DNA of 64,000 nucleotides from an uncultured Alphaproteobacteria bacterium (GTDB lineage: Bacteria; Pseudomonadota; Alphaproteobacteria; CAAHEQ01; UBA3637). The stretch lies in NCBI GenBank assembly GCA_944393195.1, contig CALXZG010000004.1:5028-69027 (forward strand). The letters run 5' to 3'. The notes beneath the pieces were generated by a model. That model saw nothing but the letters and a program-made list of their open reading frames with translations. It was not told the DNA's origin and searched no databases. Below, piece by piece: positions 23,991 to 62,976 of the stretch; positions within the stretch are counted from its first letter, which is position 1; every line of letters begins with the position of its first letter. The translations under genes were made by a program, and so were the position numbers.

Positions 23991-24013
23991 GCTAAACGCA
24001 TGATCGTCGGATA

Positions 24014-25739: not shown

Positions 25740-25741
25740 GA

Positions 25742-42437: not shown

Positions 42438-42476
42438 CACGAAACAATCAAGTATTATACTTTTCTTATTTTGCAT

Positions 42477-43662: not shown

Positions 43663-43738
<76 letters not shown>

Positions 43739-48155: not shown

Positions 48156-49337
48156 TTATTGTTCCTTTATTAAACGAATCAATCTTAACTTTAAGGTCAC
48201 TAATAATTCGCTGCCGTCGGGTGTTGTCGGATTCAAAGACGGAATCCCCAGAATGACTAATTCATTATCTAATGCGCCAATCGTATTAAATGTTGATATT
48301 TCACCAGCGCGTGTGTCTAACGTCACATCTGTTTCAACGGTATCTGTTGACCGAATTCGAGCGTTCAACAAAACAGACAGCGAACTGCTTTCATGCGGGA
48401 AAGCACACCGACCGACATCAAAACGCATTTTCCACCCGTTGGGAACAATGGCGACACCTTGACTGATCGGTGTAACGGTAAAATCATGCCCCAACGTTGA
48501 CAATAACCCTTGTGTTTTGGTATGATGTCCCGTGATTAGTGCTTTTCCCATTAAGCCGTTCGTCGCGCTGTAAATTTTTCCGGCACCGAATGTGTCGACA
48601 GTCTTTTGCCAGTTAGCGTCCGATGTTTTGGGTGTCAGGCGATAAACCTGCGTATCGGCCAACAACAGATAGGAATCGTTAACGATATAGTCAATTAAAG
48701 ATTCAACCGTCGCTTTGTCGTTTTGGGTTAACGTTAATAAAATCGTATTCTTTTTCCAATCCGGCGTCATTTCCTTTAACCCGGCACCGCGTAAGGCATC
48801 CAACATTGCCAACATCACCATGCGATTGTCGGGTAATTGTAATTCAAACCGTCCTTTTCGTGCCAGATATAATTCTTTGCGTTCGGCATCATATTTATAG
48901 AATGTATCACCGGCCCGCGTCAATTCGCCGATGACCGCCGACAATTCACCGTAGACATCTTTTGCATCTAATTCCGGATAGGCACCGTCTTCGGTATAAA
49001 CCGTAATATCGGCCTCATCCAATAATTTTTGTAATGCTTCGTCTACGGGCATGGCGTCAAAAGAAAAACCGTTTACTTCGAAACGAGGCAGCTTATCCGT
49101 TTCATCAAAAAAAGTCAGCCGAAAATCGCTTGGCTTTAAGGCAATCGTTGTGGAAATTTCCTGATCCCCGAAATTGTTGACGGAACAGCGGATTGGTGTT
49201 TCCATATTTAAAAAGCGGGCGCTTGGTGTCGTATCAAAACGGGGCGGAACGGGTGTATCGATAACAGGCATCGCCCGAATACCAATCGGTAAAGCCAACA
49301 GACCCAACATACATGTACAGAAAAATCCGATTTTCAT
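48156..49337 (-). CDS. Exported protein with secretin-N0-like module (outer-membrane component candidate)
   Basis: Signal peptide MKIGFFCTCMLGLLALPIGIRA. FSFDAMPVDEALQKLLDEADITVY resembles a secretin/STN N0 domain. The C-terminal ..NELVILGIPSL...ELLVTLKLRLI resembles the end of secretin domains. Confidence 0.35.
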   Translation of the reverse strand: MKIGFFCTCMLGLLALPIGIRAMPVIDTPVPPRFDTTPSARFLNMETPIRCSVNNFGDQEISTTIALKPSDFRLTFFDETDKLPRFEVNGFSFDAMPVDEALQKLLDEADITVYTEDGAYPELDAKDVYGELSAVIGELTRAGDTFYKYDAERKELYLARKGRFELQLPDNRMVMLAMLDALRGAGLKEMTPDWKKNTILLTLTQNDKATVESLIDYIVNDSYLLLADTQVYRLTPKTSDANWQKTVDTFGAGKIYSATNGLMGKALITGHHTKTQGLLSTLGHDFTVTPISQGVAIVPNGWKMRFDVGRCAFPHESSSLSVLLNARIRSTDTVETDVTLDTRAGEISTFNTIGALDNELVILGIPSLNPTTPDGSELLVTLKLRLIRLIKEQ

Positions 49338-49355: not shown

Positions 49356-50540
49356 CTAGCCGGCGCTTGGTTTCGTTTTATTGCCCAAAGAAAACGACAG
49401 CTTTCTTTTTACACCATTTTGGGGCGTTTGTGAAGATGTTTTTTCTTCTTTTTCTTTAATAACGTTTTGCGGAATAGATTGGCGTGTTTCCGACAGGACG
49501 ACATTTTCAATTTTGCGATACTCTTCTTTAATCGGTTTTTCGTCCAGTTCCGCATACGGATCCATCAATGGTTCAAAACCGTCCGGGGCCGGTCCTAAAT
49601 ACTCGGGCGTACCGGAGGTGTCTAACTGTCCCAATGTTTTTTGAATATCCTGACGATTCAGGTCATCACGCAGTAAATCCGTTTCTTCCGATGTTCCGTT
49701 TTGTTCGGCGATTTCTAAATCACGCTCCAATGAAATTTGCATATTTTGCAGACGCTTAACACCATCTTCATAGGAGGCCGCGATGGCACCCAACTGATCC
49801 GTGTCGGCCAATAATTCCTGAATATCCCGTTTGGTTTGTCGCATCAGATCAACCAAAAAACCGTAATGCGGATAGGCGAAAATTTCAATGTTGCCCAACT
49901 CAATACACCGCGCCGTTATCCAAGCCTGTACATTTTGTGTCAATTCCATTTGGCGAAATACTTTTTCAACAGCCCAAATCGGCTCCGGTTTTGGTTGTTC
50001 GACTTCTGTTTCGACTTTTGGGGACGGTTCAGTCACCACCTCTTGTTGTTCTGATTGCGTTATCTCGTCGGTAGGTGTTTCCGATTGAGAATTCGTCGTT
50101 GTTTGGGATATTGTTTCCGCGGGTGTTCCCGTTGTCCCGGTTGCTTCCGGTGTATCGGTTGCTTCCGGTGTATCGGTTGAGGTTATCGGCAGAGCCGCTT
50201 TTTCCCGTAATTGGGTGACGGCAGCTTCCCCGGCTTCCCCGAAAAAAGCCAGCCAATGAGATAAAACCGGAATTCGTTCGGCGATGAATGATGTATCCAA
50301 GGGGGTAGTTTGTGTCAAATATCCCTGAATTTCATTCCAGGCCGTGACCCCGGCGTAATATTGAAAGGCATGGTTTAATTTTTCCTGTTCCTCCGGCGTT
50401 AAATCCGATAACGCATCGTAAATTCGTTGAGCCCAGTCGGCCCCCAAAACCTCTGTCGCAACAGTCGTAAACTGTTCCAGTGATGCGGCGTCCCCGGTAT
50501 AAGCACGCAATGTTTCTTTCAATTTTTGAATATCAGGCAT
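49356..50540 (-). CDS. Acidic hypothetical protein with TDTPEA repeat
   Basis: 394 aa, no signal peptide. 18-nt tandem repeat at 50139-50174. No family recognised. Confidence 0.4.
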   Translation of the reverse strand: MPDIQKLKETLRAYTGDAASLEQFTTVATEVLGADWAQRIYDALSDLTPEEQEKLNHAFQYYAGVTAWNEIQGYLTQTTPLDTSFIAERIPVLSHWLAFFGEAGEAAVTQLREKAALPITSTDTPEATDTPEATGTTGTPAETISQTTTNSQSETPTDEITQSEQQEVVTEPSPKVETEVEQPKPEPIWAVEKVFRQMELTQNVQAWITARCIELGNIEIFAYPHYGFLVDLMRQTKRDIQELLADTDQLGAIAASYEDGVKRLQNMQISLERDLEIAEQNGTSEETDLLRDDLNRQDIQKTLGQLDTSGTPEYLGPAPDGFEPLMDPYAELDEKPIKEEYRKIENVVLSETRQSIPQNVIKEKEEKTSSQTPQNGVKRKLSFSLGNKTKPSAG

Positions 50541-51399
50541 TACTACCTCCTTCGGTGGTATCTTGTGATACGGGCGGAATAATCGGCGGTTTCGGGGGTA
50601 ATGGAGCCGTGGCGGAAGGCGCTTGCGGTGTCATTTGTTGTTGTGCGGTTTCAATAACATCCGAATAGTGTCGTCCCTCTTTTTCCCGTTTTTTTAAATA
50701 ATCCATCAGGCGGTTTGTTTGTCGCGCGGCCAATACCCGCGTGTTTTCGGAAGCCTTTTGAAAGGCCTGAACCAACACATCCGTTTGTGCTTTGACAATT
50801 TTTTCAACAGTTTGATTGAGGAGTTGCGTTTGTTCCAAACGATTCTTTTCACTGTTTTCGGCAGTCGGTTGTGTATTATGTATTTGTTGCAATAAAACGG
50901 ATTGCATTTTTTCCAAAGCCTGTTGCAAAAAAGCGGTTTGGCGTTCGGCTTCAGCCTGTTGCATTTGCTTCATGGCTTTCATTAATGCATTGATATGATG
51001 TGATGAATCCGTCGTATCGGGTATTCCCGTCGGTAAGGTTAACGGACCCATAAAATCCTCCTCCGGTGAGGGGAGATAACTTTCGGCACCGGAAAATGAT
51101 GTCTTTTCGTCTGACGTTTCCGATTTGCCGGCAGTTGTCGTTTGTTTCTTTAAAAAATCAAGATATTGCCGAACAACCGGTCCGCCGATAATGCTGTTAA
51201 GCATTGTTTGCACATCCGGCGGCGCATCCAACAACATTTGATTATACTGTGCGCCAAAATCCGGACCAAATACGGATAAGTGATGATACAAGTTGACCAA
51301 CCGTTGTGCCTGTTCCACAAGAGAATTTTCCTGCGGTCCTTTTTTGCGCATAAAAGTTCCCATAGGATTGTTTAATTCTTGTTCCTGTGTATCGGCCAT
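50533..51399 (-). CDS. Q-rich coiled-coil hypothetical protein with proline-rich C-terminus
   Basis: 288 aa. Overlaps the downstream gene start by 8 nt. No family recognised. Confidence 0.4.
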   Translation of the reverse strand: MADTQEQELNNPMGTFMRKKGPQENSLVEQAQRLVNLYHHLSVFGPDFGAQYNQMLLDAPPDVQTMLNSIIGGPVVRQYLDFLKKQTTTAGKSETSDEKTSFSGAESYLPSPEEDFMGPLTLPTGIPDTTDSSHHINALMKAMKQMQQAEAERQTAFLQQALEKMQSVLLQQIHNTQPTAENSEKNRLEQTQLLNQTVEKIVKAQTDVLVQAFQKASENTRVLAARQTNRLMDYLKKREKEGRHYSDVIETAQQQMTPQAPSATAPLPPKPPIIPPVSQDTTEGGSNA

Positions 51400-51413: not shown

Positions 51414-52403
51414 CTAAGGAATTGCAATGAAAACGATGCGTTGCATTTTGGGCAGCAAATCAAACGGAATAGGTGTCGATCCCGGAGCGTCGGCCGATGT
51501 ATACGACCATGTTCCGTCGGCAGATAAGCTGACAGAAACTAATTTAATGCGATCCCCCTCTATCGGCAAGACGGCAATGTCTCCGTCGTGCAGATTTTGC
51601 CCGGGTGCAACAATGAGAACGGAACGTTGTGGCAATAAATTTCCCAATGTTGTGGTCAACAGGCGAATGCCGTAGACCCCGGTTGTTTTGGCCAGTGTGG
51701 ACGGACATAAAATGGAACCAGATGATTTTTCTTTATCTAAAATAATGGTTCCGTCTTCCTGCGGTAAACCGTAAATGGGAACGTTTACCTCTTGGGAGTT
51801 GGCCGTTTTTATCATAAAACGGCTGACCGGCAGGTCGTTATAACCGCCCTTACTGTTTTCAATTCCCGATTTATTGTCACTTTGTTTCAGTTCATCTAAC
51901 GCGCCGGACATATCCAACTCATAGATTTTCAATTGTAAATCCGATCCGGAATAACCGAGCGCATGGGCAATTTTTTCCAAAACGTGTTCTTCAACTTCAC
52001 GTTGCCCCATTTCAATGCGGTGATAAACAGCCAATGTTAAACCGGCCCCCTTTGACACCTGCATTAATGTCAATTTTTTCTGACCGCGTAAATACCGCAG
52101 GCCGGCCCCCAATGTTTTTAAGCCGCTGCCGGAATTGATTTTACTGCGACGTTCCTGTTCTATTTTCCACGCTTTTATGACCTCCGGTTGAGAGGATTCT
52201 TCCGTCACGAAAATAGCTTCCGGCGGACAGTTTAACAAAGTGGAAATAGCCTCCAATTGTTTTTCATCAATACGTCGATATCCGCGTTCAATTTTACTGA
52301 TGGCAGATAAACTGACACCCAGATGATCGGCGACCTTTTTCATAGAAATACCGCGGACACGGCGGAACATGCGAATTTGATTGGGGAAAATGATTTCTTC
52401 CAT
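51414..52403 (-). CDS. Transcriptional regulator with two XRE-type HTH domains and an S24-like C-terminal domain lacking the GxSM serine motif
   Basis: Start at ATG 52403 (RBS aaggag, 7-nt spacer). HTH1 ISMKKVADHLGVSLSAISKIERGYR. HTH2 LTLMQVSKGAGLTLAVYHRIEMGQR. C-terminal LGNLLPQRSVLIVAPGQNLHDGDIAVL...IKLV. Confidence 0.65.
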   Translation of the reverse strand: MEEIIFPNQIRMFRRVRGISMKKVADHLGVSLSAISKIERGYRRIDEKQLEAISTLLNCPPEAIFVTEESSQPEVIKAWKIEQERRSKINSGSGLKTLGAGLRYLRGQKKLTLMQVSKGAGLTLAVYHRIEMGQREVEEHVLEKIAHALGYSGSDLQLKIYELDMSGALDELKQSDNKSGIENSKGGYNDLPVSRFMIKTANSQEVNVPIYGLPQEDGTIILDKEKSSGSILCPSTLAKTTGVYGIRLLTTTLGNLLPQRSVLIVAPGQNLHDGDIAVLPIEGDRIKLVSVSLSADGTWSYTSADAPGSTPIPFDLLPKMQRIVFIAIP

Positions 52404-52497
52404 GTGGGCTCTCCTTATTGTTTTTTTCACTATACACTAAAAATTTTTTTTGGGAAATAGACAAAATGCAAAAAAATACTTTTTTTTGTAAAAAGAT

Positions 52498-52525
52498 GAA
52501 AAAAAGCCTCCGTTAAGGAGGCTGT
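52498..52525 (-). terminator. Intrinsic terminator ending the membrane-protein operon
   Basis: agcctcc-gttaa-ggaggct hairpin. On the minus strand it is followed by ttttttt. Confidence 0.75.
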
Positions 52526-52560: not shown

Positions 52561-53508
52561 TCATTTTTTTGGGGGATCGGTCTGTGCCGATGCCGGATGG
52601 ATTCTGTTTTTGAGTTTTTGTGCGGTTTTTCTTGCCGTTCGCAGGCTGTGACTGGCGGCTTTGCCTGTGGCAATAGCCGTATATTTAGCGGATTTTCCGG
52701 CTGCTTTTATCCCATATTCCGCCGTTTTGGCCGCCGCAGTAACGGCAGCTCCGGCTACGATCAGCGGAATACCGATAATCGCACCGATCACTGTTCCGGA
52801 CAGAGCCGAACCGGCCTTCATCAATCCTTTCCCGGCGGCACTACCGGCCGCGCCGACGGCTGTTCCGGCGACCTGAGCTCCTTTATCCATGGCGTTACCG
52901 GCTGATTTTGCCCCTTGGTCGACAACCTTGCCGGCGGTTTCGGACGTTTTTTCTGTTGTTTTTTCCGCAGCCTGACCGAATTTATCAAGTGGTGTGGCTT
53001 TGGAATCACCACCACTTTTATTCAGAAAGCTGTCTGTTTTGAATTTAATGGCCTCTCTGCCTTTGTTGGCCGTTCCCAGAATATTTTTACCAAAAGAATA
53101 CGCGTCTGATATGACACCGACAATTGCCGAACCGACCAAACTGGGAAGGTCTCCGGCCAAACCGCTGATCGCTTCAATAACAACGTTGGCCGAATTGATC
53201 AGGTGTATACCGAGGAAAGCCGTAAATAACAAAATCAGAACAACATATAACGCACTGCCGTCTTTTCCGCCCAAAAAGGCAGCGTATAATGTTTCGTAAT
53301 ATTCGTTCGGAACTGTTGTATCAACAACGACTTCTTGGTATTTACCACCAATACCGCTTCCCATGAATCCATCACCGGAATGCGTTGATCCCGAGATATA
53401 AGCGTTTTCCATATCGTAACTAGCTTGTCCCGTAGCGGGGGTCAGAACAATACCGCCGATCAGGCAGATCAAACCGATAATTGTTAACAGGGTTGATTTC
53501 CGAATCAT
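52561..53508 (-). CDS. Membrane protein with G/A/K-rich amphipathic repeats, unknown function
   Basis: Start at ATG 53508 (ATGA overlap with the upstream stop). N-terminal TM, central TM, then a long AGKxAxxAG-type low-complexity region with another TM. Confidence 0.5.
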   Translation of the reverse strand: MIRKSTLLTIIGLICLIGGIVLTPATGQASYDMENAYISGSTHSGDGFMGSGIGGKYQEVVVDTTVPNEYYETLYAAFLGGKDGSALYVVLILLFTAFLGIHLINSANVVIEAISGLAGDLPSLVGSAIVGVISDAYSFGKNILGTANKGREAIKFKTDSFLNKSGGDSKATPLDKFGQAAEKTTEKTSETAGKVVDQGAKSAGNAMDKGAQVAGTAVGAAGSAAGKGLMKAGSALSGTVIGAIIGIPLIVAGAAVTAAAKTAEYGIKAAGKSAKYTAIATGKAASHSLRTARKTAQKLKNRIHPASAQTDPPKK

Positions 53509-55037
53509 TTTGTACCCCCTTCGGTTTCCCCGATCATAGCGGGAACAAGCACGCTTTCGGCATCCCCCGGTAAGAAAGAGGTAAACATTAACAAAACCAA
53601 GGCTATCCCGATGGACAGGGCAATCATGCTGAGAATTGCATGAACAAAGAAATTCCATCCTGTTTTTGCATATTGACGTGAAATCGGAAAAGCGTATGCC
53701 GTGATCAGCAGTGGCATCAGGACAAAAACGAAACCCAGACGGATAAAAATATCCATCAACCTGAATGCTGCCCAAAAAGCCAATAATGTAAAGACAACGA
53801 CAATGATAATACCCAAAATATACATTGGCAACGGGTAGGGAATTTTATCTGTTTTTCCGCCTGTTGCTTTACTGGCTAATTCGGATATGACCGTTTTATT
53901 TTTGAAAGAATAACGGATGAGCAGTTGACCGGAGGCAATAAAGGGGAGGGTTTGTTTGTAAATGCGGCATGTTGTACACAGTAAGCCCGCCCGATCGGCT
54001 TCATCCAACAGGCGAACGGTTGATTTTTTTATATTGCGTTCTGTATTGGCGGCATCGTTACAATTGCTGCCGGAATCGGTACAACAACTGCATCCCAGTA
54101 CATCCGCTTTATTAAAATTTTCGGAGAAAGCAGGGGACGAGGTTAGTTGTATTGCCGTTATTTGTTGTGTGATGGTGGTACCGATACCGATCAGGGGGGA
54201 TAGGGTAATCCGGTAAAATTCAACCAAGGGTGCCTGTAAAATAACGGCAACGCATAGGACGACAAACAAACGTGTTGCAATATCAGTCATAAAGTCACTT
54301 TGTCCGCCGGTTCCTAGTTTACCGATAAACGTCAGAACATAAAAGGCTAACCAAAATAATGTCATCAATCCCAACAAAATCAGAGCCGTTGTTTTCATAA
54401 AATCTTCAACGGAAAAGACTGTTTTTTCAACGGCCTCCAACATCATATCCACAATCCCGCACGGCCAACAACGTCCTCGTTCTTCTTCTAACAGCATCGG
54501 AACGGTTTTTAGTTCTTTTGCCGTTTGCCGTTTTTGCCATTCGGTCCCTTTTTCTTTCAATTCATGGGCGCAGTCATAGTAGTTATGACGACCGGTTCCA
54601 AAAAGTGTCGCCCCCCATCCGACATCATTGGCCCCTAATTGATCGTACATATCTATATATTCATATGCTTCATCCAACATTTCAGGCGGGTTTTTCCCTT
54701 CCGGATCAAAGGATTCGTTTGATTTACAAATATCGGGCCCGGTTTTATCCAATTTTGCCACATATTCATCCGCCAGTTGATCGGTTACATTGTCATCTCT
54801 GAAAAACCCACTGGCTGTTGCCGTGTGTGGCAGGCTCAATAGCGCAATGAACCAAATGAATAGTCCCGTTTTACGACCATGATATAAATAGATTCCCAAA
54901 AAGAGCAAAATACCCAGGATGCCGATACCGCACAGAGATAGTATCATGCTTTCATTTTGCTCTGCCGGAAGAAACGCCAAGATTCCGATTAAGGCGAGCA
55001 ATCCAACAGTTTCCATGATATGTCGTATCGTATGCAT
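53505..55037 (-). CDS. Polytopic membrane protein, CWPC-motif paralog family (VirB6/TrbL-like candidate), 510 aa
   Basis: RGRCWPCGIVDMM..., a Cys-rich loop, and RLMDIFIRLGFVFVLMPLLITAYAFPISRQYAKTGWNFF, shared with 55053 and 56338. Confidence 0.5.
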   Translation of the reverse strand: MHTIRHIMETVGLLALIGILAFLPAEQNESMILSLCGIGILGILLFLGIYLYHGRKTGLFIWFIALLSLPHTATASGFFRDDNVTDQLADEYVAKLDKTGPDICKSNESFDPEGKNPPEMLDEAYEYIDMYDQLGANDVGWGATLFGTGRHNYYDCAHELKEKGTEWQKRQTAKELKTVPMLLEEERGRCWPCGIVDMMLEAVEKTVFSVEDFMKTTALILLGLMTLFWLAFYVLTFIGKLGTGGQSDFMTDIATRLFVVLCVAVILQAPLVEFYRITLSPLIGIGTTITQQITAIQLTSSPAFSENFNKADVLGCSCCTDSGSNCNDAANTERNIKKSTVRLLDEADRAGLLCTTCRIYKQTLPFIASGQLLIRYSFKNKTVISELASKATGGKTDKIPYPLPMYILGIIIVVVFTLLAFWAAFRLMDIFIRLGFVFVLMPLLITAYAFPISRQYAKTGWNFFVHAILSMIALSIGIALVLLMFTSFLPGDAESVLVPAMIGETEGGTK

Positions 55038-55052
55038 GTTTCTCTCCCGTCG

Positions 55053-56294
55053 TTACCCTTTTGCTATGGACGCAATATCGCTTTTTATTTTTTGTAAATT
55101 TTCCTTAAATTGTTTGGGGTCATGGGCCGTGACAGCCAATTTTAGCGCATTTTTCCCTAAATTTTGAAGACCTTTGACAACTTGAGTCATGGCACCGGCG
55201 CTACCGTCACCGCCAAAACGACTTGCCATTTTCGGAATATGATTGGCCAGTGCATTCATCGCCAACAAAAGGACGAAAAAAGCTAGGGCATTTGTTTTGA
55301 AATTGTGAATACCGCTGACCATAGACGGATCTGCCGTTTGGCGGGCAACGCTCAGGGCCGCCGGATATGACCGTTCGGTATACACCAAAATCAGATAAAC
55401 CATCAGGGAGATAAAAATACTGCCGAATAAGAGGGTAACCATAGCACCGAACAAGATGTCCCAACCTTTTCGAATCATGCTTTTGGTTGGTGGGAATACC
55501 CACGCAACAAATAGAAACGGAGACAAGATAATAATAACGCCGAGCCGGATAAACGAATCAATAAACAATAGTGGAAATCTGAGTAACAGATTAAAGAAAA
55601 TTAAAATGACCAAAAGACCGAACAGAATGCCCAATAACCCGGGTTCACGCAGAATTGTCATTCCCAAAGCGACACCGGAGCGTAAAGCAACCGTTATTCG
55701 GTAAATAATATCCAAGATATAGATTTTTGTGTCCCCAAAAATTTGTATGCTTGCCCCCGTACCGGAAACTGTTTCTGTAATATCCGATGGGGTCAGCAGG
55801 CGTTGTGCAACGTCGGTGTCGCTTGTTAAAACCTGTCGGATAATTTCGGCAAATGTCAACAGAACGGGTTGTACAATCAGGTGCGCAATAAAGGCAATAT
55901 AATCCCCCGGATTAAGCAACAATGCGGCCACCAGTATGGCTTTAAACAAAACAATCATAACGGATTGGACGAATCGTTTGACATTTGGTTCTTTGACGGA
56001 TACGACGAACGTGCCGACCTTAAACAACAACCAAAATAATAATCCGAAACCCAGAATGATAATGGCATGGTGTGTCATGTCGTAGGTCAGAGCAATAATA
56101 CCTTTGTCCAAGGCGGAGAACGCCGCATCGTATAAAATGCATGGCCAACAATTTTCGATGTTGGTCGTCCATTCATCGGCATTATACGGAACCTCTTGTT
56201 TACCACAGGCACACAGCAACAGGCAACACATCACTACGAACATAATGTATCGCAGATGGATCCGGTCTTTGATCTGTGTTGCCGTTAACGACAT
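55053..56294 (-). CDS. Polytopic membrane protein, CWPC-motif paralog family (VirB6/TrbL-like candidate), 413 aa
   Basis: NIENCWPCILYDAAF... and LFIDSFIRLGVIIILSPFLFVAWVFPPTKSMIRKGWDILF. Multiple TM segments. Confidence 0.5.
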   Translation of the reverse strand: MSLTATQIKDRIHLRYIMFVVMCCLLLCACGKQEVPYNADEWTTNIENCWPCILYDAAFSALDKGIIALTYDMTHHAIIILGFGLLFWLLFKVGTFVVSVKEPNVKRFVQSVMIVLFKAILVAALLLNPGDYIAFIAHLIVQPVLLTFAEIIRQVLTSDTDVAQRLLTPSDITETVSGTGASIQIFGDTKIYILDIIYRITVALRSGVALGMTILREPGLLGILFGLLVILIFFNLLLRFPLLFIDSFIRLGVIIILSPFLFVAWVFPPTKSMIRKGWDILFGAMVTLLFGSIFISLMVYLILVYTERSYPAALSVARQTADPSMVSGIHNFKTNALAFFVLLLAMNALANHIPKMASRFGGDGSAGAMTQVVKGLQNLGKNALKLAVTAHDPKQFKENLQKIKSDIASIAKG

Positions 56295-56337
56295 GTTTTT
56301 CTCCTTTTATCCTGACTATTTCCCCAAATATCGTCGG

Positions 56338-57942
56338 TTATCCCTTGGCACCTCCATCAGAACCCCCGGACGAAGATTGAGAAGACGAATCCGTATCGGA
56401 AGATCCAGAAGAATTAGTGTTGCCCCCTGTTTGAACGGGTTGTTCGCCACCGCCTTTGCTATCCGTATGTTGATCGTTTGAAATCGGTGGATTTTTCCCG
56501 CCTTGGGTTTCGTTGTTAGACGGAGGGGGTGGTGTCGGTTCTGGCTTCGGCCCGTTGTTATTATTGTTCTCGTTTGAACCACCGCCAAAGGTTCCCCGCG
56601 GTGCGGGCCCCGGTCCGCCGCCCCCTGAACCGCCACCGCCTTTGTTATCCGTATGTTGATCGTTTGAAATCGGTGGATTTTTCCCGCCTTGGGTTTCGTT
56701 GTTAGACGGCGGGGGTGGTGTCGGTTCTGGCTTCGGCCCGTTGTTATTATTGTTCTCGTTTGAACCACCGCCAAAGGTTCCCCGCGGTGCGGGCCCCGGT
56801 CCGCCGCCCCCTGAACCGCCACCGGTGTTGTTATCAGAGCCGCCTCCGCCGTTACCACCCTGACCGCCACCGGTGTTGTTATCAGAGCCGCCTCCGCCGT
56901 TACCACCCTGACCGCTACCCTTAGACCTATTACGAATAGCGCCGGCCCCGGCACCGATTAATCCGGCGGTTGCCTTGGTCGCATTTCTGGTCAAATTAAT
57001 GGTTTGCGATACATTTTGTGTCATTTGCTTATCCAGTCCGTGTGACGGTGCACCGATAAAGGCGTTAGCCAACGCTTCCGCAGTGCCAAGGAGCTTGAAA
57101 CTCAGAAGCCCGAACGCCAAAGTGATAAAGAATGTCCGGCTGAAACTCATCATATTGGCGGCTTGTTGCGTTTGACCGTTAAGCATGGCTTGGAAAATAT
57201 CTTTTCGTATGTTGTCCGGTTGAATTGCTTCGTTCATTAAAAGCAAAATAAGTGCGACAATGATGCTGAGCGATAAGAAAAAGAACAAGGTACTGACAAA
57301 CATATCCCATGCTTTTTTGGTATAGCCTGCGGTTACCGGAAATACCCATAAGACAATCCACAACGGCATTAAAGCGAAAATAAAGCCCAGTCGGATAAAT
57401 GCATCCAACAGTTTTAGCGGAAACATGACATAAATCAGGAAGAATACCAGGAAAATAAGGGCCCCGATAACAATCGTGACGATTCGATCCCACCAATCAT
57501 CGCATCCCATTTTGATCATCGTTGACCCCAGGGCCATTCCGACCCCTAACGAAGCCGATACATCCTGTAACCAGCAAATCGTTGTTTTTAAAATTTGGCT
57601 GTTACCACTGCCGAGAGCCGTATCAGATGCAAAATTGTCCGTAAAACTACATCCCTCATAGGAAACACCGGCCTCTTTGGCCGCCTGCATTAATTCTAAT
57701 CCACCGATATTGGGGGCGCTTGCCTTTTCCTCAGCCAAAGCAGTCCCGAACGGCATCATGAACAGGATCTCCTTTGTCCCTTTAATTATTGTGTTGTCAG
57801 CATTCCAAGCATTATTCCAAGCATTACTAGAGATCTCCTTTATCCCTTTAATTATTGTGTTGTCAGCCAAAGCAGTCCCGAACGGCATCATGAACAGGAG
57901 GGTTAAACAAATAAATAAAAATGTACGAATTTTATGCAACAT
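56338..57942 (-). CDS. Polytopic membrane protein of the same family with G/N/P/S-rich repetitive C-terminal tail (TrbL-like candidate), 534 aa
   Basis: LKLLDAFIRLGFIFALMPLWIVLWVFPVTAGYTKKAWDMF. The C-terminal ~200 aa are low-complexity with tandem repeats. Signal peptide is duplicated. Confidence 0.5.
   Translation of the reverse strand: MLHKIRTFLFICLTLLFMMPFGTALADNTIIKGIKEISSNAWNNAWNADNTIIKGTKEILFMMPFGTALAEEKASAPNIGGLELMQAAKEAGVSYEGCSFTDNFASDTALGSGNSQILKTTICWLQDVSASLGVGMALGSTMIKMGCDDWWDRIVTIVIGALIFLVFFLIYVMFPLKLLDAFIRLGFIFALMPLWIVLWVFPVTAGYTKKAWDMFVSTLFFFLSLSIIVALILLLMNEAIQPDNIRKDIFQAMLNGQTQQAANMMSFSRTFFITLAFGLLSFKLLGTAEALANAFIGAPSHGLDKQMTQNVSQTINLTRNATKATAGLIGAGAGAIRNRSKGSGQGGNGGGGSDNNTGGGQGGNGGGGSDNNTGGGSGGGGPGPAPRGTFGGGSNENNNNNGPKPEPTPPPPSNNETQGGKNPPISNDQHTDNKGGGGSGGGGPGPAPRGTFGGGSNENNNNNGPKPEPTPPPPSNNETQGGKNPPISNDQHTDSKGGGEQPVQTGGNTNSSGSSDTDSSSQSSSGGSDGGAKG
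56445..56816. repeat. Tandem direct repeat, 2 x 186 nt, near-identical, inside the 56338 gene
   Basis: cgccaccgcctttg[c/t]tatccgtatgttgatcg... recurs at 56445 and 56631. Encodes a 62-aa unit (..GGGSGGGGPGPAPRGTFGGGSNENNNNNGPKPEPTPPPPSNNETQGGKNPPISNDQHTD..). Confidence 0.9.
56821..56916. repeat. Tandem direct repeat, 2 x 48 nt
   Basis: accggtgttgttatcagagccgcctccgccgttaccaccctgaccgc[c/t] occurs twice. Encodes GGQGGNGGGGSDNNTG x2. Confidence 0.9.
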
Positions 57943-57956
57943 GGTTTCCTCCTAAA

Positions 57957-58586
57957 TCAACTGAAACTGAGAATTGTGGTGATGATTTTGCTGCTTAAAC
58001 TTAACGACAATTCCAAAAACGGTGTAATCAATAAACTGAAAATATTATCACCGGCCACCGTGGCGGAAGCGGTTGTAAAGGTTGTCAACAGGGCGGCGGC
58101 GATCATCCCGCGACCGAGCGGTTTGAATAAATCCTGCAAAAACTGCATCAGATTAACTTCTTGTAATTGTATCAACATTTTACCGACTTTAAATAGGATG
58201 ATAAACAAAAGCCCTAAACCCAACAAAATCATGAAAAGATTGCTTAATTCTTTGAAAATGGTTGTGGCTAATTTATTGATGGCGGTTAACAGGCTGGCAA
58301 AGGTGGAGCAAAACCAACATCCACCGTTATTCATATAATCGTTTAGTGTCGTGACAAACAAGGTTTGGTTAGCTTCATTTTTAGCATCCATGGCATCCAT
58401 GATTGCTTTTCCGCTTGTATAAAACCCCGGATCCGGTAACGGGTCTCCTTTCTGGATGGCTTGCTTTTGATGAATGGTTGTGCTTGTCAGGAGGCCGGGA
58501 TTTGCGTATGTTTTCGGCGATGACAGGATTAACAGGATGCCGAGACAAATAATGCTGAGTATTTTTTTCATCCTTTTTCCTTTCAT
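57957..58586 (-). CDS. Short (209 aa) CWFC-motif paralog: signal peptide plus N-terminal module only
   Basis: Signal MKKILSIICLGILLILSSPKTYA. NNGGCWFCSTFASLL...ILLGLGLLFIILFKVG. Confidence 0.55.
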   Translation of the reverse strand: MKGKRMKKILSIICLGILLILSSPKTYANPGLLTSTTIHQKQAIQKGDPLPDPGFYTSGKAIMDAMDAKNEANQTLFVTTLNDYMNNGGCWFCSTFASLLTAINKLATTIFKELSNLFMILLGLGLLFIILFKVGKMLIQLQEVNLMQFLQDLFKPLGRGMIAAALLTTFTTASATVAGDNIFSLLITPFLELSLSLSSKIITTILSFS

Positions 58587-59182
58587 GCGATTAGGGTTTT
58601 GACAACGTAGCTGCTGAGGTTGAGAGCCATTTCTAAAAACGGTGTGATCAACAAACTGAAAATATTATCGTCGGTAACCACGGCAGAAGTGGTTGTAAAA
58701 GTCGTCAGTAGAGCGACGGCGACAATCCCACGGCCGAGCGGTTTAAATAAATCCTGTAAAAACTGGGCGCCATTCACTTCCTGTAATTGAAATGCCATAC
58801 GACCAACCTTAAAAGCAATAACAAATAGCAGGCCGAATCCCAATAAAATCATGGCCAGATTGGCCAAAGCCTTAAACATGGTTGTTGCGATTGTATTAAT
58901 AGCGTTTAATAAAGCGGCAAACATGGGACAGAACCAACAACCACCGTTGTTCATATAACTTTTCAGTGTCGTGACAAACAAGGTTTGGTTAGCTTCATTT
59001 TTAGCATCCATGAGTGCTTTTCCGCTTGTATAAAACCCCGGATCCGGTAACGGGTCTCCTCTCTGGATGGCTTGCGTTTGATGAACGGTTGTGCTTGTCA
59101 GGAGGGCGGGATTTGCGTATGTTTTCGGCGATGACAGGAAAAGCAGAATACCAAAACAAACTATACCGAGTATCTTTGTCAT
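58583..59182 (-). CDS. Short (199 aa) CWFC-motif paralog: signal peptide plus N-terminal module only
   Basis: RBS aaaggagga. Signal MTKILGIVCFGILLFLSSPKTYA. NNGGCWFCPMFAALL...ILLGFGLLFVIAFKVG. Confidence 0.55.
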   Translation of the reverse strand: MTKILGIVCFGILLFLSSPKTYANPALLTSTTVHQTQAIQRGDPLPDPGFYTSGKALMDAKNEANQTLFVTTLKSYMNNGGCWFCPMFAALLNAINTIATTMFKALANLAMILLGFGLLFVIAFKVGRMAFQLQEVNGAQFLQDLFKPLGRGIVAVALLTTFTTTSAVVTDDNIFSLLITPFLEMALNLSSYVVKTLIA

Positions 59183-59359
59183 GTTTTCCTCCTTTTACGT
59201 CATTACCAAACGGGCCGCATAGCGACGCTTATTTTGTGTGTTAATACAGGTTCCTATGTATAGTATATCACATTTTCTGAATTTACCAGCATTTTTTTGT
59301 GGATTATTCAAAAAAAAGAGATATAATAATCATCAGGATGTTGTTTAAGCGGAGGAGAT

Positions 59360-59995
59360 ATGACAATCTCGGAGAAAATTTTTCAGATTTACCAACAATT
59401 TTATGATCAACGGTCGGTTTTGCAGGAGGCTCCTCCTTTGACCGTTAATCCGGCCGTTGTCGGAATGCGTGATTTTCCGGTTGAACAGGCGATGACCGAA
59501 TTAAACGCTTTGGTGTCTTATTTATTGGGACGTGCGGATGTTCGTAAGATTTCTTTCGGTGATGCGTTAAATATTGTGGACAGCGCTTATGCAGATCAAC
59601 CGTTTTGGCGGGATTTGTTGTTGGATTATTTCGATGTTGTTTTATCGCAACGGGAAGAAGCCTATATCCAAAAAGGAAAGGAGTTACAACAACAGTCCGA
59701 GAATGTCATTGATGAAATTGTTCGTTTCGAAGCCAAACGGGCGGCCGTCGTCCGCTTTTTTGCCGATAAAATACGAGAGGCTAAATTTCGTGTGGATGCA
59801 TCATTGTTGGTGTATAACTACATTAAAATGATGGGGCATGATGCGGCTAAGGCTAAGGCCGAAGTGGTGGCTAATCCCGCTTATTTCGCGCCGATTCAGG
59901 TTAAGGATGAAACCGGTCGGAAGGTGTTAACGCCGGCGCAGGCCAGGGAGGAAAACAAGCGTCTCGGGCAATTTTTAAAGAAGCTTTTTGTGTAA
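59360..59995 (+). CDS. Hypothetical protein (helical, no signal peptide)
   Basis: RBS ggaggag. 211 aa. No family recognised. Divergent from the membrane-protein array. Confidence 0.4.
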   Translation: MTISEKIFQIYQQFYDQRSVLQEAPPLTVNPAVVGMRDFPVEQAMTELNALVSYLLGRADVRKISFGDALNIVDSAYADQPFWRDLLLDYFDVVLSQREEAYIQKGKELQQQSENVIDEIVRFEAKRAAVVRFFADKIREAKFRVDASLLVYNYIKMMGHDAAKAKAEVVANPAYFAPIQVKDETGRKVLTPAQAREENKRLGQFLKKLFV

Positions 59996-60059: not shown

Positions 60060-61058
60060 ATGGCAAACGAAAATATGGATCCTAATAAACTTGACCAGGG
60101 GAAAGATCCGGTGGGTGATAATATTTCCCCCATGTCGGGTGCGCCAAGCGGTGGTGGAACAGGTGGGACCGAGGAACCTGAAAACCAAGCGGCTTTGGTG
60201 TCCGAAATCGAATCCAAAATGAATATGGTTGAGGCAACGACCGGGGTACGGCCGAACATTGTGCCGACGGAGTATTTTAAAGGGGAAAGAAAAGCCTTCG
60301 ATTTAATTAAGGAGTTGGATAAACAGCTGGAAAAAGCCTTGTCCGCGAAATCTCCGGAGGAGTGGGCGACATCGATGTTTTGGGCGGCGCTCAATTGTCC
60401 GTTTACGACGGCGAATGCTTGGTTGGAGCATCGAAAAGGGGAAAAAGAACGGTTGGATAAAGAATATAAGTCAAATGTTGCCGATTATGAACGCTCTATC
60501 GGTGTTTCGACGATCGATAAATTTATGGCCGGGTGGTCAGAAGTAATGAAAAATTTGCCGCCCGAGTATGGTCGTTATGTTGACAAAGACGGCCGTTTGG
60601 ATAAAAAGGCGATGCCAAAAGGGATGTGGGATGATTTGCGCAAGCAAGTATTTAAAAATCCGACTATTCGGGCTGCGGTTGAGCAAAAAGCCGGGCACTC
60701 TTTCGAAACGAACGAATGGGAAAAAATAACAAAGGGAATGTTTGCGTTCGTTGATGAAAAAGCGCCCCCCATTCTCCCGAATAAGCAGGAGGAGAAAAAG
60801 CCGAAAAAAGAAACAGGAGCGGAAGATTTTAAAAATTTATTTAAAAATTTAAAAGAGGCCGTTGCCGGATTAAATCAAACGGTTTCCGAACTGAAAAACA
60901 TCTTGAAGCGCGGAAAGGATCAGCACAACAATAATCAATCTCATGAAAAAGAGGGTGAACAGTTGCGGAATGATCGGCAGATTTTGAATGACCGGCGTAA
61001 TCGGAACCAGGGTCGAGGCGGACAGACCCAAACGCGGGGACCGGATCGCGGTCGCTAA
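60060..61058 (+). CDS. Hypothetical protein with basic R/N/Q-rich C-terminus
   Basis: RBS aggagg. 332 aa. Gly-rich N-terminus and RGG-like tail. No family recognised. Confidence 0.4.
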   Translation: MANENMDPNKLDQGKDPVGDNISPMSGAPSGGGTGGTEEPENQAALVSEIESKMNMVEATTGVRPNIVPTEYFKGERKAFDLIKELDKQLEKALSAKSPEEWATSMFWAALNCPFTTANAWLEHRKGEKERLDKEYKSNVADYERSIGVSTIDKFMAGWSEVMKNLPPEYGRYVDKDGRLDKKAMPKGMWDDLRKQVFKNPTIRAAVEQKAGHSFETNEWEKITKGMFAFVDEKAPPILPNKQEEKKPKKETGAEDFKNLFKNLKEAVAGLNQTVSELKNILKRGKDQHNNNQSHEKEGEQLRNDRQILNDRRNRNQGRGGQTQTRGPDRGR

Positions 61059-61160
61059 AATCCGTTTTTCGGGAATAAAAGTCGTGTTTTTAACACGGCT
61101 TTTATTTTTTTCTGGTAATTCCGGTTATTTTGGAGTATAAGCGGAACATAAGGAGTTATC

Positions 61161-62246
61161 ATGGCCAAAAATACAGAAAAATCAAGCTGGATACGTATCG
61201 TTTTAACGGGAATTATTTGGTCGTTTGTGTACCTGCAAGGAATGGCTTTACTATGTTATAATATTTTTCGGTTTAATCCGTTGATTTTATCCGAATGGGT
61301 AACATTGGCAAAGCGTTTTATGGCGGGACAATGGGTTATTAATACGGTCAAAGATACGGGATTGTTTGTTTGCCTTATTCTATTTGTTCCGTTGTGGGGA
61401 ATCGGGTGGTATGTTTTGACGCGTGTTCGGTGGGGGCGGTATTTGCCCTCGTTTAAAAGTCGGCGAACGGTTCAACGGCGGATTTTGGGGGATGTTCAGG
61501 CGAAAAAGCCTTTCGCGCCGATGAAGTTGCGGGTTCAATCGTCCGCTTTATTGAGTGTGAATCCGGCCGCAGCTTATTCACAACAGGTCGGTGGTGGGAC
61601 AAAAACAGATGTCGGCGGTGTTTCGCCCGCGCCGGTTTCTTCTTATCCCGATGAAGCGGATATTCAACAAATGTTGCCTTTGGTTCAATCTCCGTCGGTT
61701 GATTTTTTCCCGCATATTTCTTTAAACGGTCATTATGCCGCGTTTGCTTTGTCGACGGAAAATAAGGCGGCGGTTGTTACGTTGATCAACGATCCGGAGG
61801 GGCGGTGGTCGGTTGATACGGATTCTCCGGTAGAAAACAGCGATTGGTATAGTGAAACACGAATTTTACCGGCCCCTTTGTCCGATATTATCCAAATTGC
61901 AGAGCAGTTACGCCAATCGGATAGCGGGGCAACGGCCGTGCCGGTGGCTATCTTAATGTCAGGGACTATGTTAAATGCGGTCGAAGCCAAAACATACCTG
62001 GAAGAAAAAGGAATTGTTTTGACACGATTGGAAGCGGTTGATTCGGATGATATTCCGTTATTTTCCGATTTCATGACATTTTTCTTTGAGTCGGCGGCGG
62101 AAACAGAAGCAATATCCACGGAAGCGGGGGATGAGGCTTTACCGGCGGATGAGGTTATCTCGGACACGAAGGATGAAAACGGGGGCGTTGTTGATGTGGC
62201 GGATGACGAAGATGAAGGTGTCGCCGAACCGGAGGATAACGCATGA
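61161..62246 (+). CDS. Membrane protein (3 N-terminal TM segments) with cytoplasmic domain and acidic tail, unknown function
   Basis: RBS aaggag. TM segments in the first ~95 aa. ATGA overlap with pgpA implies co-transcription. Confidence 0.45.
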   Translation: MAKNTEKSSWIRIVLTGIIWSFVYLQGMALLCYNIFRFNPLILSEWVTLAKRFMAGQWVINTVKDTGLFVCLILFVPLWGIGWYVLTRVRWGRYLPSFKSRRTVQRRILGDVQAKKPFAPMKLRVQSSALLSVNPAAAYSQQVGGGTKTDVGGVSPAPVSSYPDEADIQQMLPLVQSPSVDFFPHISLNGHYAAFALSTENKAAVVTLINDPEGRWSVDTDSPVENSDWYSETRILPAPLSDIIQIAEQLRQSDSGATAVPVAILMSGTMLNAVEAKTYLEEKGIVLTRLEAVDSDDIPLFSDFMTFFFESAAETEAISTEAGDEALPADEVISDTKDENGGVVDVADDEDEGVAEPEDNA

Positions 62247-62754: not shown

Positions 62755-62976
62755 ATGGATAAAGAACATTTTAAACATGTTGTGGCATTATATGCCAAAG
62801 CCAAAGGGTATGAATTGTCGCCGTTTGCCGATCGGATTATTAATCGGTGTTTGACGGCGTGTGAAGGGCATTGTCCGTGTGATGTTTCACGGGGATTTTG
62901 TCCGTGTGGCGAACATGAACGTGAAATTGCCGAAATGGGGCATTGTCATTGTAACCTGTTTGTTCAAAAAAAATAA
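62755..62976 (+). CDS. Small Cys-rich protein resembling the ferredoxin-thioredoxin reductase catalytic subunit
   Basis: HCPC..CPC..HCHCNLF arrangement (CPC / CPC / CHC triads), 73 aa. Confidence 0.45.
   Translation: MDKEHFKHVVALYAKAKGYELSPFADRIINRCLTACEGHCPCDVSRGFCPCGEHEREIAEMGHCHCNLFVQKK

What the first reader, a model, noticed from the sequence alone, without database searches (positions are those of the whole stretch)
52561..59182. Tandem array of five paralogous polytopic membrane proteins (CW[PF]C loop motif; FIRLG..P..FP..W block) plus a sixth membrane protein, with no secretion ATPase in sight
Six minus-strand genes form one operon. Each has its own Shine-Dalgarno sequence, there are stop/start overlaps at 58583-58586 and 53505-53508, and a clean terminator lies at 52498-52525. 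The three large members share an unmistakable block: LLDAFIRLGFIFALMPLWIVLWVFPVTAGYTKKAWDMF, LFIDSFIRLGVIIILSPFLFVAWVFPPTKSMIRKGWDILF and RLMDIFIRLGFVFVLMPLLITAYAFPISRQYAKTGWNFF. Four members (510, 413, 209 and 199 aa) share a CW[PF]C motif (CWPC/CWFC). It is followed by an amphipathic stretch and a TM of the form ILLG(L/F)GLLF..(L/A)FKVG. The 534 aa member has only a degenerate CW (TTICWLQD). From memory, the P..F...FP.T....W pattern and a G/N/S/P-rich C-terminal tail are hallmarks of VirB6/TrbL proteins. Tandem multi-copy virB6 arrays are a Rickettsiales (rvh) peculiarity, but there they follow virB3/virB4. Here there is no VirB4, VirB11 or VirD4-like gene anywhere in 64 kb. Two members are only the N-terminal module, and the conserved CWxC pair is not something I associate with described VirB6 proteins. 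The array is either a divergent, dispersed type IV-like system or an undescribed membrane machine.
Basis: partly seen in the sequence, partly recalled or inferred. Interest (0 to 1): 0.85.

Follow-up and report, generated by a model that had tools for sequence, protein, structure and literature searches.

The report
Split three-paralog VirB6-like membrane gene array
Six adjacent genes in an uncultured gut alphaproteobacterium encode three very divergent, unannotated copies of VirB6, the inner-membrane core of type IV secretion systems; two copies are split into separate genes, and the array sits beside a hidden secretin operon, far from any secretion ATPase.

Summary
In detail: six co-directional minus-strand genes (52561-59182), real paralogy, CWxC and FIRLG..P..W.FP motifs, two ATGA overlaps, a clean terminator, and no secretion ATPase in 64 kb.

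The anatomy needs correcting. The ancestral unit is three paralogs:
- P1 is split here into A/B plus C.
- P2 is D.
- P3 is split here into E plus F. F is P3's detached tail, not an unrelated protein.

Relatives carry the fused forms.

Three lines of evidence make the VirB6/TrbL relationship likely, though no member passes Pfam's threshold:
- The AlphaFold model of D has only R388 TrwI/VirB6 chains as significant PDB matches.
- 25 of 68 family members give sub-threshold TrbL hits to one model region.
- hhalign pairs the conserved motif with TrwI's.

The family has about 1,800 clusters at 50% identity. The 13 members whose names were seen are all "hypothetical", and all organism-labelled loci are uncultured gut or rumen Alphaproteobacteria.

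In one divergent lineage the same cluster abuts a genuine virB5-like/B8/B7/B8/B9/B10/B11 island in Rickettsia rvh order, and that island has no VirB6 of its own. The array is therefore most likely the VirB6 set of a dispersed rvh-like type IV system.

The array is also linked to an operon whose 393-aa protein is a secretin by fold. That link is unexplained.

The parts
58583..59182 (-). A (199 aa): signal peptide plus the N-module of paralog P1, copy 1. CWFC at residues 82-85 (nt 58928-58939).
   Evidence: Matches residues ~30-190 of the fused 636-669-aa P1 of relatives.
57957..58586 (-). B (209 aa, probably 204 from Met6): tandem duplicate of A. CWFC at residues 90-93 (nt 58308-58319).
   Evidence: 75% aa identity to A; 73-89% DNA identity; start-codon issue. 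L002 has a single N-module gene.
56338..57942 (-). C (534 aa): new signal peptide, then the C-module of P1 with the conserved block (residues 180-217, nt 57292-57405), then a G/N/S/P-rich tail carrying near-perfect tandem repeats.
   Evidence: Weak TrbL hit at residues 128-246, model positions 78-190. Repeats.
55053..56294 (-). D (413 aa): compact full-length paralog P2. Lipobox LLLCAC|G, CWPC at residues 49-52 (nt 56139-56150), block at residues 246-283 (nt 55446-55559).
   Evidence: Lipobox in 18 of 18 P2 orthologs. AF2 pLDDT 73, pTM 0.67. Foldseek top 7 hits all TrwI/VirB6.
53505..55037 (-). E (510 aa): core of paralog P3. It has N-terminal TMs, a periplasmic domain, CWPC at residues 190-193 (nt 54459-54470), a Cys-rich loop (C.CC...C, C..C), and the block at residues 429-466 (nt 53640-53753).
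   Evidence: Fused to F in relatives.
52561..53508 (-). F (315 aa): detached C-terminal extension of P3, with its own N-terminal signal/anchor, 2 further TMs and a K/A/G-rich tail.
   Evidence: 25-38% identical to the C-terminal part of the 766-975-aa fused P3 of L007, L008, L009, L010 and L015. Junction comparison.
52505..52523 (-). Intrinsic terminator ending the six-gene operon.
59183..59359 (.). Divergent intergenic (promoter) region between A and u211.
   Evidence: The divergent arrangement is conserved in 12 lineages.
59360..59995 (+). u211: conserved cytoplasmic 211-aa orphan protein. It is the array's most constant neighbour.
   Evidence: No Pfam or PDB match.
60060..62246 (+). u332 (60060-61058) and u361 (61161-62246, membrane N-terminus): orphan genes co-conserved with u211.
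   Evidence: No Pfam family.
51414..52430 (-). Double-HTH (Xre/cI-type) regulator with an S24-like C-terminus. The likely true start is the ATG at 52403 (329 aa).
   Evidence: PF00717 weak in the L005 ortholog. 51-74% identity across lineages. Shine-Dalgarno sequence.
49356..51399 (-). g288 (50533-51399) and g394 (49356-50540): acidic, low-complexity cytoplasmic orphans.
48156..49337 (-). g393: small divergent secretin (signal peptide, N-domains, secretin beta-domain).
   Evidence: AF2 pLDDT 81, pTM 0.72. The top 22 Foldseek hits (all those at E <= 0.001) are secretins (PilQ, BfpB, InvG, GspD, XcpQ, f1 pIV), E 4e-9 to 7e-4. No sequence-level hit.
47567..48154 (-). g195: bitopic protein (Pro-rich N-terminus, one TM, ~90-aa periplasmic domain with a Cys pair), always just after the secretin gene.

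Best explanation
The six genes encode three paralogous, very divergent 'extended VirB6'-type inner-membrane proteins (P1, P2, P3). They most likely form the VirB6 stalk and assembly platform of a dispersed, Rickettsia-rvh-like type IV secretion system whose ATPases and outer-membrane core lie elsewhere in the genome.

Shown:
- Each paralog has two modules. The N-module is a periplasmic CWxC at the start of a long amphipathic/TM helix, followed by more TM helices. The C-module carries the FIRLG..P..W.FP.T..Y.K.W helices.
- The two modules together give a fold of about seven long helices that matches TrwI/VirB6.
- In this lineage P1 and P3 have each undergone gene fission. Each downstream fragment (C and F) has acquired its own signal/anchor sequence, which preserves topology. 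The P1 N-module gene was then duplicated.

Inferred:
- By analogy with R388, where five VirB6 subunits form the stalk base on which VirB5 and the VirB2 pilin assemble (PMC9259494), P1-P3 would form a hetero-oligomeric platform.
- The invariant CWxC sits in the periplasm, after a lipobox or signal peptide, at a helix N-cap. It would form a disulfide or a redox/metal site at the membrane surface.
- The long low-complexity tails resemble those of extended VirB6 proteins.
- The double-HTH/S24 regulator downstream probably controls the cluster.
- The co-conserved secretin operon is an additional partner of unknown role.
For: 1. Fold. The AF2 model of D has its 7 best PDB hits all on TrwI/VirB6 (8rt9_F E 2.3e-4, prob 1.0, TM 0.37/0.51). 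The next hit has E 0.15 and prob 0.15.
2. Sequence. C hits PF04610 weakly. 25 of 68 distant relatives hit PF04610 at E <= 0.01 (best 4.2e-7, up to 25.2 bits). In the five hits checked (C534 and four relatives) the matches fall within model positions ~78-202. Precomputed 'TrbL weak/faint' flags appear on paralogs in L022 and L024.
3. Profile-profile. The C-module profile against a TrwI-family profile gives E 3.4e-4 and prob 38%, and aligns the two conserved motifs.
4. Conservation. The triad is intact and collinear in at least 16 independent lineages down to ~28% identity, always in housekeeping contexts.
5. T4SS link. In L024/L026-L029 the same cluster is convergent with VirB5-like (PF07996, 26.6 bits), a VirB8 paralog, a 58-aa lipoprotein, VirB8, CagX/VirB9, VirB10 (TrbI, 108 bits) and VirB11 (E 4e-17 to R388 TrwD). 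That island contains no polytopic VirB6. The order B8-B7-B8-B9-B10-B11 equals Rickettsia islet C, and multi-copy virB6 arrays with scattered islets are the rvh hallmark (PMC2653234).
Against: - No window protein reaches Pfam's TrbL gathering score (12.1 vs 25.9 bits). NCBIfam and PDB sequence/profile searches find nothing.
- The hhalign probability is only 38%, and the TM-scores are modest.
- No T4SS gene is present in the window or in any other fetched locus. T4SS presence is therefore shown for one distant lineage only (P2 29% identical), where adjacency could be coincidental.
- Unlike rvh, the array is never next to virB3/virB4.
- T4SSs are not known to use secretins (0 mentions in the 2025 T4SS review PMC12857230), yet the array's strongest conserved linkage is to a secretin operon.
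Confidence: 0.6

Rival explanations
1. The three VirB6-fold proteins, the orphan secretin (g393), g195, u211 and the other co-conserved orphans form their own envelope-spanning apparatus. It would be a VirB6-type inner-membrane platform coupled to a secretin outer-membrane pore. It would be evolutionarily derived from a T4SS component but functionally independent of the T4SS.
For: - The array is directly followed by the HTH-g288-g394-secretin-g195 operon in 11 of 16 evaluable lineages, including very divergent ones.
- In the two checkable MAGs where they are apart, both are still present: IKS41_07275 with IKS41_01400, and SPL08_04430 with SPL08_03325.
- All partners are orphans restricted to the same clade.
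- The array is never next to virB3/B4.
Against: - There is no energising ATPase in any version of the cluster.
- Synteny may partly reflect shared descent.
- In five lineages the two units are separated.
- The only recognisable machinery ever found adjacent is a T4SS island that lacks a VirB6.
- No precedent exists for VirB6-secretin coupling.
Confidence: 0.2
2. This is a clade-specific polytopic membrane protein family unrelated to VirB6. The resemblance would be convergent, from a generic bundle of long hydrophobic helices, and the function something else (a transporter or envelope biogenesis).
For: - Every sequence-level test is sub-threshold.
- Helical membrane proteins give spurious structural matches.
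- TM-scores are 0.37-0.53.
Against: - The Foldseek hits are exclusive to VirB6, with a sharp drop afterwards.
- Independent relatives hit overlapping regions of the TrbL model.
- The motifs correspond.
- The cluster sits next to a VirB6-less T4SS island.
Confidence: 0.1
3. The split genes are a decaying remnant of a former T4SS or mobile element, that is, pseudogenes in progress.
For: - P1 and P3 are fragmented relative to most relatives.
- C carries 97-100% identical internal duplications, including a duplicated signal-peptide segment.
- No ATPase is nearby.
Against: - All six ORFs are intact, and five have clear ribosome-binding sites.
- The same fissions occur in L002 at 57% identity.
- Each fragment gained a signal/anchor that preserves topology.
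- The motifs are invariant across ~1,800 clusters.
- The context is chromosomal housekeeping, with no integrase or relaxase.
Confidence: 0.05

Closest known systems
Rickettsiales rvh T4SS VirB6 paralogs (RvhB6a-e, islet A) (Gillespie et al. 2009, PMC2653234)
   Same: Several tandem VirB6-type paralogs in an alphaproteobacterium. The proteins are large and hydrophobic, conserved only in a short core, with long hydrophilic extensions. The T4SS genes are scattered in islets. A related lineage has an islet in the rvh order virB8-B7-B8-B9-B10-B11.
   Different: There are three paralogs rather than five. The array is never adjacent to virB3/virB4. The sequences are below Pfam's TrbL threshold, whereas RvhB6 proteins are annotated through that domain. 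An invariant periplasmic CWxC is present. The host is an extracellular gut or rumen lineage known only from MAGs. A VirB5-like gene is present in the related island, whereas rvh lacks VirB5. No virD4 follows virB11. The array is linked to a secretin operon.
TrwI/VirB6 of plasmid R388 (PDB 7O3V, 8RT9, 8RTD; PMC9259494)
   Same: It is the best and only significant structural match to D. It has about seven long helices, most of them hydrophobic. Its conserved P...W.P-T....W segment aligns with the FIRLG block.
   Different: Identity is 13-14%. TrwI is 342 aa, a single copy, encoded between virB5 and virB7/8, and has no CWxC, no lipobox and no long tail.
Extended-VirB6 subfamily (e.g. Anaplasma VirB6-4, Gram-positive MPF_FA VirB6 homologs; PMC12857230, PMC7648143)
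   Same: A VirB6 core plus large unstructured hydrophilic, repeat-bearing C-proximal domains; proteins of 700-900+ aa in the fused forms.
   Different: Here the extension is sometimes a separate gene (F here; the 348-aa P1 tail gene in L024). The family is not recognised by current models.
Secretins of T2SS, T4P, T3SS and filamentous phage (GspD, PilQ, BfpB, InvG, pIV). This concerns the neighbour g393, not the array.
   Same: The fold-level match covers both the N-domains and the secretin beta-domain. A small bitopic partner is encoded next to it.
   Different: There is no PF00263 hit. The protein is only 393 aa. There is no cognate ATPase, platform or pilin gene. It is linked to VirB6-like genes instead.

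Membership tests
TrbL/VirB6 (Pfam PF04610) | Score at or above Pfam's gathering threshold (25.9 bits) | tested here: not met
   C scores 12.1 bits (E 0.17); A, B, D, E and F have no hit. The best relative, P0064, scores 25.2 bits. 25 of 68 relatives hit at E <= 0.01, but the four relatives whose scores were printed are all below threshold.
TrbL/VirB6 | VirB6 fold: about seven long alpha-helices, mostly hydrophobic, as in TrwI | tested here: met
   The AF2 model of D is all-helical with seven long helices. The Foldseek top 7 hits are all TrwI/VirB6, prob 1.0, E 2e-4 to 2e-2, TMt 0.42-0.56. The seven-helix description is from PMC9259494.
TrbL/VirB6 | Profile-level homology to bona fide VirB6 sequences | tested here: inconclusive
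   hhalign of A5 vs the TrwI family A6 gives prob 38%, E 3.4e-4, over 128 columns with the motifs in register. A1 vs A6 gives prob 15.5%. hmmsearch against PDB finds nothing.
TrbL/VirB6 | Encoded with, and acting in, a T4SS (VirB4 and other VirB genes) | tested here: inconclusive
   There are no VirB genes in the window or in most loci. One divergent lineage has a VirB6-less virB5/8/7/8/9/10/11 island adjacent. The window's own genome cannot be searched.
TrbL/VirB6 | Pentameric stalk base that binds VirB5 and VirB2 | not testable with these tools
   This needs multimer modelling or experiment.
Rickettsiales-type rvh T4SS | Tandem multi-copy virB6 array of extended paralogs | tested here: met
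   Three paralogs in tandem in every lineage.
Rickettsiales-type rvh T4SS | virB6 array contiguous with virB3-virB4 (islet A) | tested here: not met
   The upstream neighbour is u211 or u361/pgpA in all loci where the upstream flank is readable. No VirB4-like ORF lies within +/-10 kb in any locus.
Rickettsiales-type rvh T4SS | Islet C gene order virB8a-virB7-virB8b-virB9-virB10-virB11(-virD4) | tested here: inconclusive
   The order is present in L029/L026, without virD4 and with a VirB5-like gene upstream. It is not shown for the window's lineage.
Secretin (Pfam PF00263), for neighbour g393 | Secretin domain by sequence model | tested here: not met
   There is no Pfam, PHROG or PDB sequence hit.
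Secretin, for neighbour g393 | Secretin fold (N-domains plus C-terminal beta-domain) | tested here: met
   AF2 pLDDT 81. The 22 hits at E <= 0.001 are all secretins; global TM-scores are low (0.16-0.30), as expected when a monomer model is compared with chains from assembled rings.

The most novel reading that the evidence does not exclude
The VirB6-fold triad and the cryptic secretin operon (with u211, g195 and the acidic orphans) are parts of one previously unseen envelope-spanning machine. It would join a T4SS-type inner-membrane platform to a secretin outer-membrane pore, either as an unusual module of an rvh-like T4SS or as an independent system. It would be confined to a large clade of uncultured gut and rumen Alphaproteobacteria.
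Probability: 0.2. Interest if true: 0.85.

Novelty: new variant of a known kind. Interest (0 to 1): 0.6.

Why it matters
- **An unannotated family.** It has about 1,800 clusters at 50% identity. Every named member seen is 'hypothetical protein'. Current Pfam and NCBIfam models miss it, so T4SS surveys would score these genomes as lacking VirB6.
- **An rvh-like T4SS outside the Rickettsiales.** It points to a Rickettsia-rvh-like, islet-organised T4SS with multiplied VirB6 in extracellular gut and rumen Alphaproteobacteria. This bears on where the rvh architecture arose.
- **Natural dissection of VirB6.** The fissions (N-module | C-module | tail), each with compensating signal sequences, split VirB6 into its domains. 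The invariant periplasmic CWxC is a testable new feature.
- **A possible VirB6-secretin link.** The conserved linkage to a fold-only secretin operon is unexplained. If it is functional, it would be a new combination of secretion-system parts.

Tried and rejected
- Pfam, NCBIfam and PHROG scans of the six proteins and ten neighbours gave nothing significant.
- HMM searches of PDB sequences with profiles A1, A5, A4 and A8 gave no relevant hit.
- A Pfam scan of 28 orthologs of g195, g394, g288, u361 and u332 at E <= 0.1 found no family in more than 2 members.
- The first word-indexed homolog search found only 19 hits and suggested a tiny family. The exhaustive HMMER search overturned this with 1,829 hits.
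- The metagenome-contig scan returned one short locus and was uninformative.
- The VirB4-sized 790-aa gene in L029 has no Walker A motif and is VirB5-like, not VirB4.
- The 73-aa ORF beside pgpA was considered as a possible pilin and rejected. It is soluble and Cys-rich, of CPC/CHC type.
- A prophage or ICE origin for the array was rejected. The contexts are housekeeping and vary between lineages, and there is no integrase or relaxase.
- Literature searches found no description of the family or of a VirB6-secretin association.

Full report
**1. Observation**

BLASTP among them gives these matches:

| Pair | Result |
|---|---|
| A vs B | 75% identity |
| A/B vs residues ~45-160 of D | 1e-12 to 1e-13 |
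| A/B vs residues ~188-300 of E | 1e-5 |
| C vs the C-terminal half of D | 8e-22 |
| C vs the C-terminal half of E | 3e-18 |
| D vs E, end to end | 3e-18 |
| F vs any of the others | no match |

- CWFC/CWPC is present in A, B, D and E. The DxFIRLG..P..W.FP block is present in C, D and E.
- Gene spacing is -4, 14, 43, 15 and -4 nt. Five genes have clear Shine-Dalgarno sequences. B's first ATG has none, but Met6 has a GGGA-type one.
- A 7-bp GC-rich hairpin with a T-run follows F.
- Pfam scans of the large ORFs and a Walker-A scan find no VirB4/VirB11/VirD4-like gene in the 64 kb. The Walker-A ORFs with a family assignment are an ABC ATPase, ATP synthase alpha/beta, a terminase and DnaB.
- The window is a bacterial chromosome carrying ATP synthase, Lnt, PgpA, DnaB and TsaB.

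**2. Real anatomy: three paralogs, two fissions, one duplication**

- Relatives were fetched through D's homologs. They always carry a collinear triad:
  - P1: N-module, C-module and a long tail (478-964 aa).
  - P2: about 400-460 aa.
  - P3: 465-1022 aa.
- In L001, L005, L007, L015 and others, A/B+C form one gene (636-669 aa) and E+F form one gene (766-975 aa).
- L002 shares the window's splits (204+731 and 508+334 aa), so the fissions are inherited and stable.
- Each downstream fragment has gained an N-terminal signal/anchor: C has MLHKIRTFLFICLTLLF...ALA and F has MIRKSTLLTIIGLICLIGG. This would keep the following segment periplasmic, as in the fused proteins.
- F is therefore P3's detached extension, not a sixth unrelated protein. 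A and B are a lineage-specific tandem duplicate (73-89% DNA identity).

**3. Topology and the CWxC**

- All 18 P2 orthologs have a lipobox (L-x-[STC]-[AG]-C) about 17 residues before CWPC.
- A and B have cleavable signal peptides. E has an odd number of N-terminal hydrophobic segments before its CWPC. The motif is therefore periplasmic in all three paralogs (inference from sequence).
- In the AF2 model it sits at the N-terminus of a 49-residue helix (H50-98) that continues into the membrane.
- Across 68 representatives of the wider family both Cys are invariant and the Trp is at least 90% conserved.

**4. Relationship to VirB6/TrbL**

- Direct sequence tests fail. Pfam gives only 12.1 bits for C, and NCBIfam and PDB sequence searches give nothing.
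- Three independent indirect tests agree:
  - The AF2 model of D (pLDDT 73, pTM 0.67) finds only TrwI/VirB6 chains of the R388 T4SS as significant PDB matches. These are ranks 1-7, with prob 1.0. Rank 8 has prob 0.15.
  - An exhaustive HMMER profile search finds 1,829 relatives among 1.84 billion representatives. Of 68 sampled, 25 hit PF04610 at E <= 0.01 (best 4.2e-7). In the cases checked, the hits fall within model positions ~78-202, the same region as C's weak hit.
  - hhalign of the C-module profile against a TrwI-family profile gives E 3.4e-4 and prob 38%. It aligns LMPLWIVLWVFPxTxxYTKKAW with GLGPxFIxALLWQPTxRFFExW.
- I conclude that the proteins are very probably remote VirB6 homologs with the VirB6 fold. 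They do not meet the curated family threshold.
- The members whose source names were seen (13, across) are all called 'hypothetical protein'.

**5. Genomic setting**

- All ten species-representative genomes with the triad are uncultured Alphaproteobacteria/Pseudomonadota MAGs; sources named in the records include sheep rumen and roe-deer abomasum.
- The flanks are housekeeping genes and differ between lineages (pgpA/dnaB/ruvAB, rpsF-rpsR-rplI, thyX/valS, HU/aspS). The array is therefore not mobile-element cargo.
- Two neighbourhoods recur:
  - A divergent u211 (with u332 and u361).
  - Downstream, an operon of double-HTH/S24 regulator, g288, g394, g393 and g195. It is adjacent in 11 of 16 evaluable lineages, including L022 and L024, where P2 is only ~29% identical.
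- In two MAGs where the two units are apart, both are still present.
- g393 has no sequence-level annotation, but its AF2 model (pLDDT 81) matches secretins exclusively at E <= 0.001: PilQ, BfpB, InvG, GspD, XcpQ and f1 pIV, down to E 4e-9.

**6. The T4SS link**

- In L024/L026-L029 (including GCA_964311715.1) the g195 end of the cluster is convergent with a T4SS island. Listed from the far end, the island holds:
  - Secreted proteins of 241 and 240 aa.
  - A 790-aa VirB5-like protein (PF07996, 26.6 bits, above threshold).
  - Secreted proteins of 252 and 546 aa.
  - A VirB8 paralog (204 aa).
  - A 58-aa lipoprotein, VirB7-like by position.
  - VirB8 (PF04335).
  - CagX/VirB9 (PF03524).
  - A 2,455-aa VirB10 (TrbI, 108 bits).
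  - VirB11 (T2SSE; 26% identity to R388 TrwD, E 4e-17).
- The order B8-B7-B8-B9-B10-B11 is that of Rickettsia rvh islet C. Rickettsia also scatters its T4SS into islets and multiplies VirB6 (PMC2653234).
- The island has no polytopic VirB6, and nothing T4SS-like lies in the 3 kb of housekeeping genes upstream of it.
- The simplest reading is that the triad supplies VirB6 to a dispersed rvh-like T4SS whose virB2/3/4/D4 lie elsewhere.
- This is not shown for the window's own genome. No such genes occur in the window or in the other loci.

**7. Mechanism proposed**

- Shown:
  - The fold, topology signals, paralogy and fissions.
  - The conservation of the cluster.
  - The adjacency to a T4SS island in one lineage.
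- Inferred:
  - P1-P3 assemble into a VirB6-type stalk base or assembly platform. In R388 this is a pentamer on which VirB5 and the VirB2 pilin assemble (PMC9259494).
  - The CWxC forms a periplasmic disulfide or redox site at the membrane surface.
  - The tails behave like extended-VirB6 hydrophilic domains (PMC12857230).
  - The double-HTH/S24 protein regulates the cluster.
- Unexplained: why a secretin operon is co-conserved with VirB6 genes. T4SS outer-membrane cores are VirB7/9/10, and the 2025 T4SS review does not mention secretins at all.

**8. Verdict**

- The VirB6 idea and the 'dispersed T4SS' alternative are supported, but membership by curated criteria is not met.
- Novelty: a new variant of a known kind. 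It is an unrecognised, CWxC-bearing, fission-prone VirB6 family in a non-Rickettsiales clade.
- An open and more novel possibility is a VirB6-secretin machine (probability about 0.2).

Noticed in passing
window 48156-49337 (-): This unannotated 393-aa exported protein is a secretin by predicted fold only. It has 123 homologs, all unnamed or called hypothetical, and the named ones come from Alphaproteobacteria MAGs. It sits in an operon with a double-HTH/S24 regulator and three orphan proteins, and there is no ATPase.
   Followed up: yes
window 56445-56919 and 57731-57899 (inside gene C): Gene C contains near-perfect tandem duplications: 186 nt x2.1 (97-99% identical) and 48 nt x2.3 in the G/N/S/P-rich tail. 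A 132-nt-spaced exact repeat also duplicates part of the signal peptide (LFMMPFGTALA appears twice). These are either recent expansion or assembly artefact.
   Followed up: partly
window 18848-27426 (-): This block carries phage-like genes: a T7-type head-to-tail connector/portal (PF12236, E 1.7e-124, 25936-27426) and a terminase-like ORF with a Walker A motif (19260-20672). It may be a podovirus-type prophage, a remnant, or a GTA-like element.
   Followed up: no
window 13392-15266 (+): The ATP synthase alpha subunit carries an N-terminal OSCP/delta domain (PF00213 at residues 20-93 plus the alpha domains). This looks like a delta-alpha fusion.
   Followed up: no
window 62755-62976 (+): A conserved 73-aa Cys-rich ORF (CPC...CPC...CHC) lies between pgpA and dnaB. 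It is present at the same place in L001, L002, L005 and L020.
   Followed up: no
window 40607-41721 (-) and 42001-44000: The alkaline phosphatase ORF is only 258 aa, with partial matches to a 423-position model, and an overlapping ORF lies upstream, so it may be a frameshift or pseudogene. The adjacent 2 kb has the lowest GC in the window (0.35 vs ~0.46).
   Followed up: no
L029 12565-19932 (related lineage, not the window): A 2,455-aa VirB10 homolog has beta-flower/RHS-like repeats ahead of its TrbI domain. Upstream are a 790-aa Ser/Gly-rich VirB5-like protein and four other secreted coiled-coil proteins. This is an unusually elaborate T4SS periplasmic and surface apparatus.
   Followed up: partly
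L022 1-497 (related lineage): A fourth paralog with a weak TrbL hit (692 aa) lies ~10 kb upstream of the triad in this lineage, so the copy number varies between lineages.
   Followed up: no
window 51414-52430 (-): The listed GTG start of the HTH regulator is probably wrong. The orthologs are 329 aa and begin MEEIIFPNQ. That ATG (52403) is preceded by AAGGAG.
   Followed up: partly
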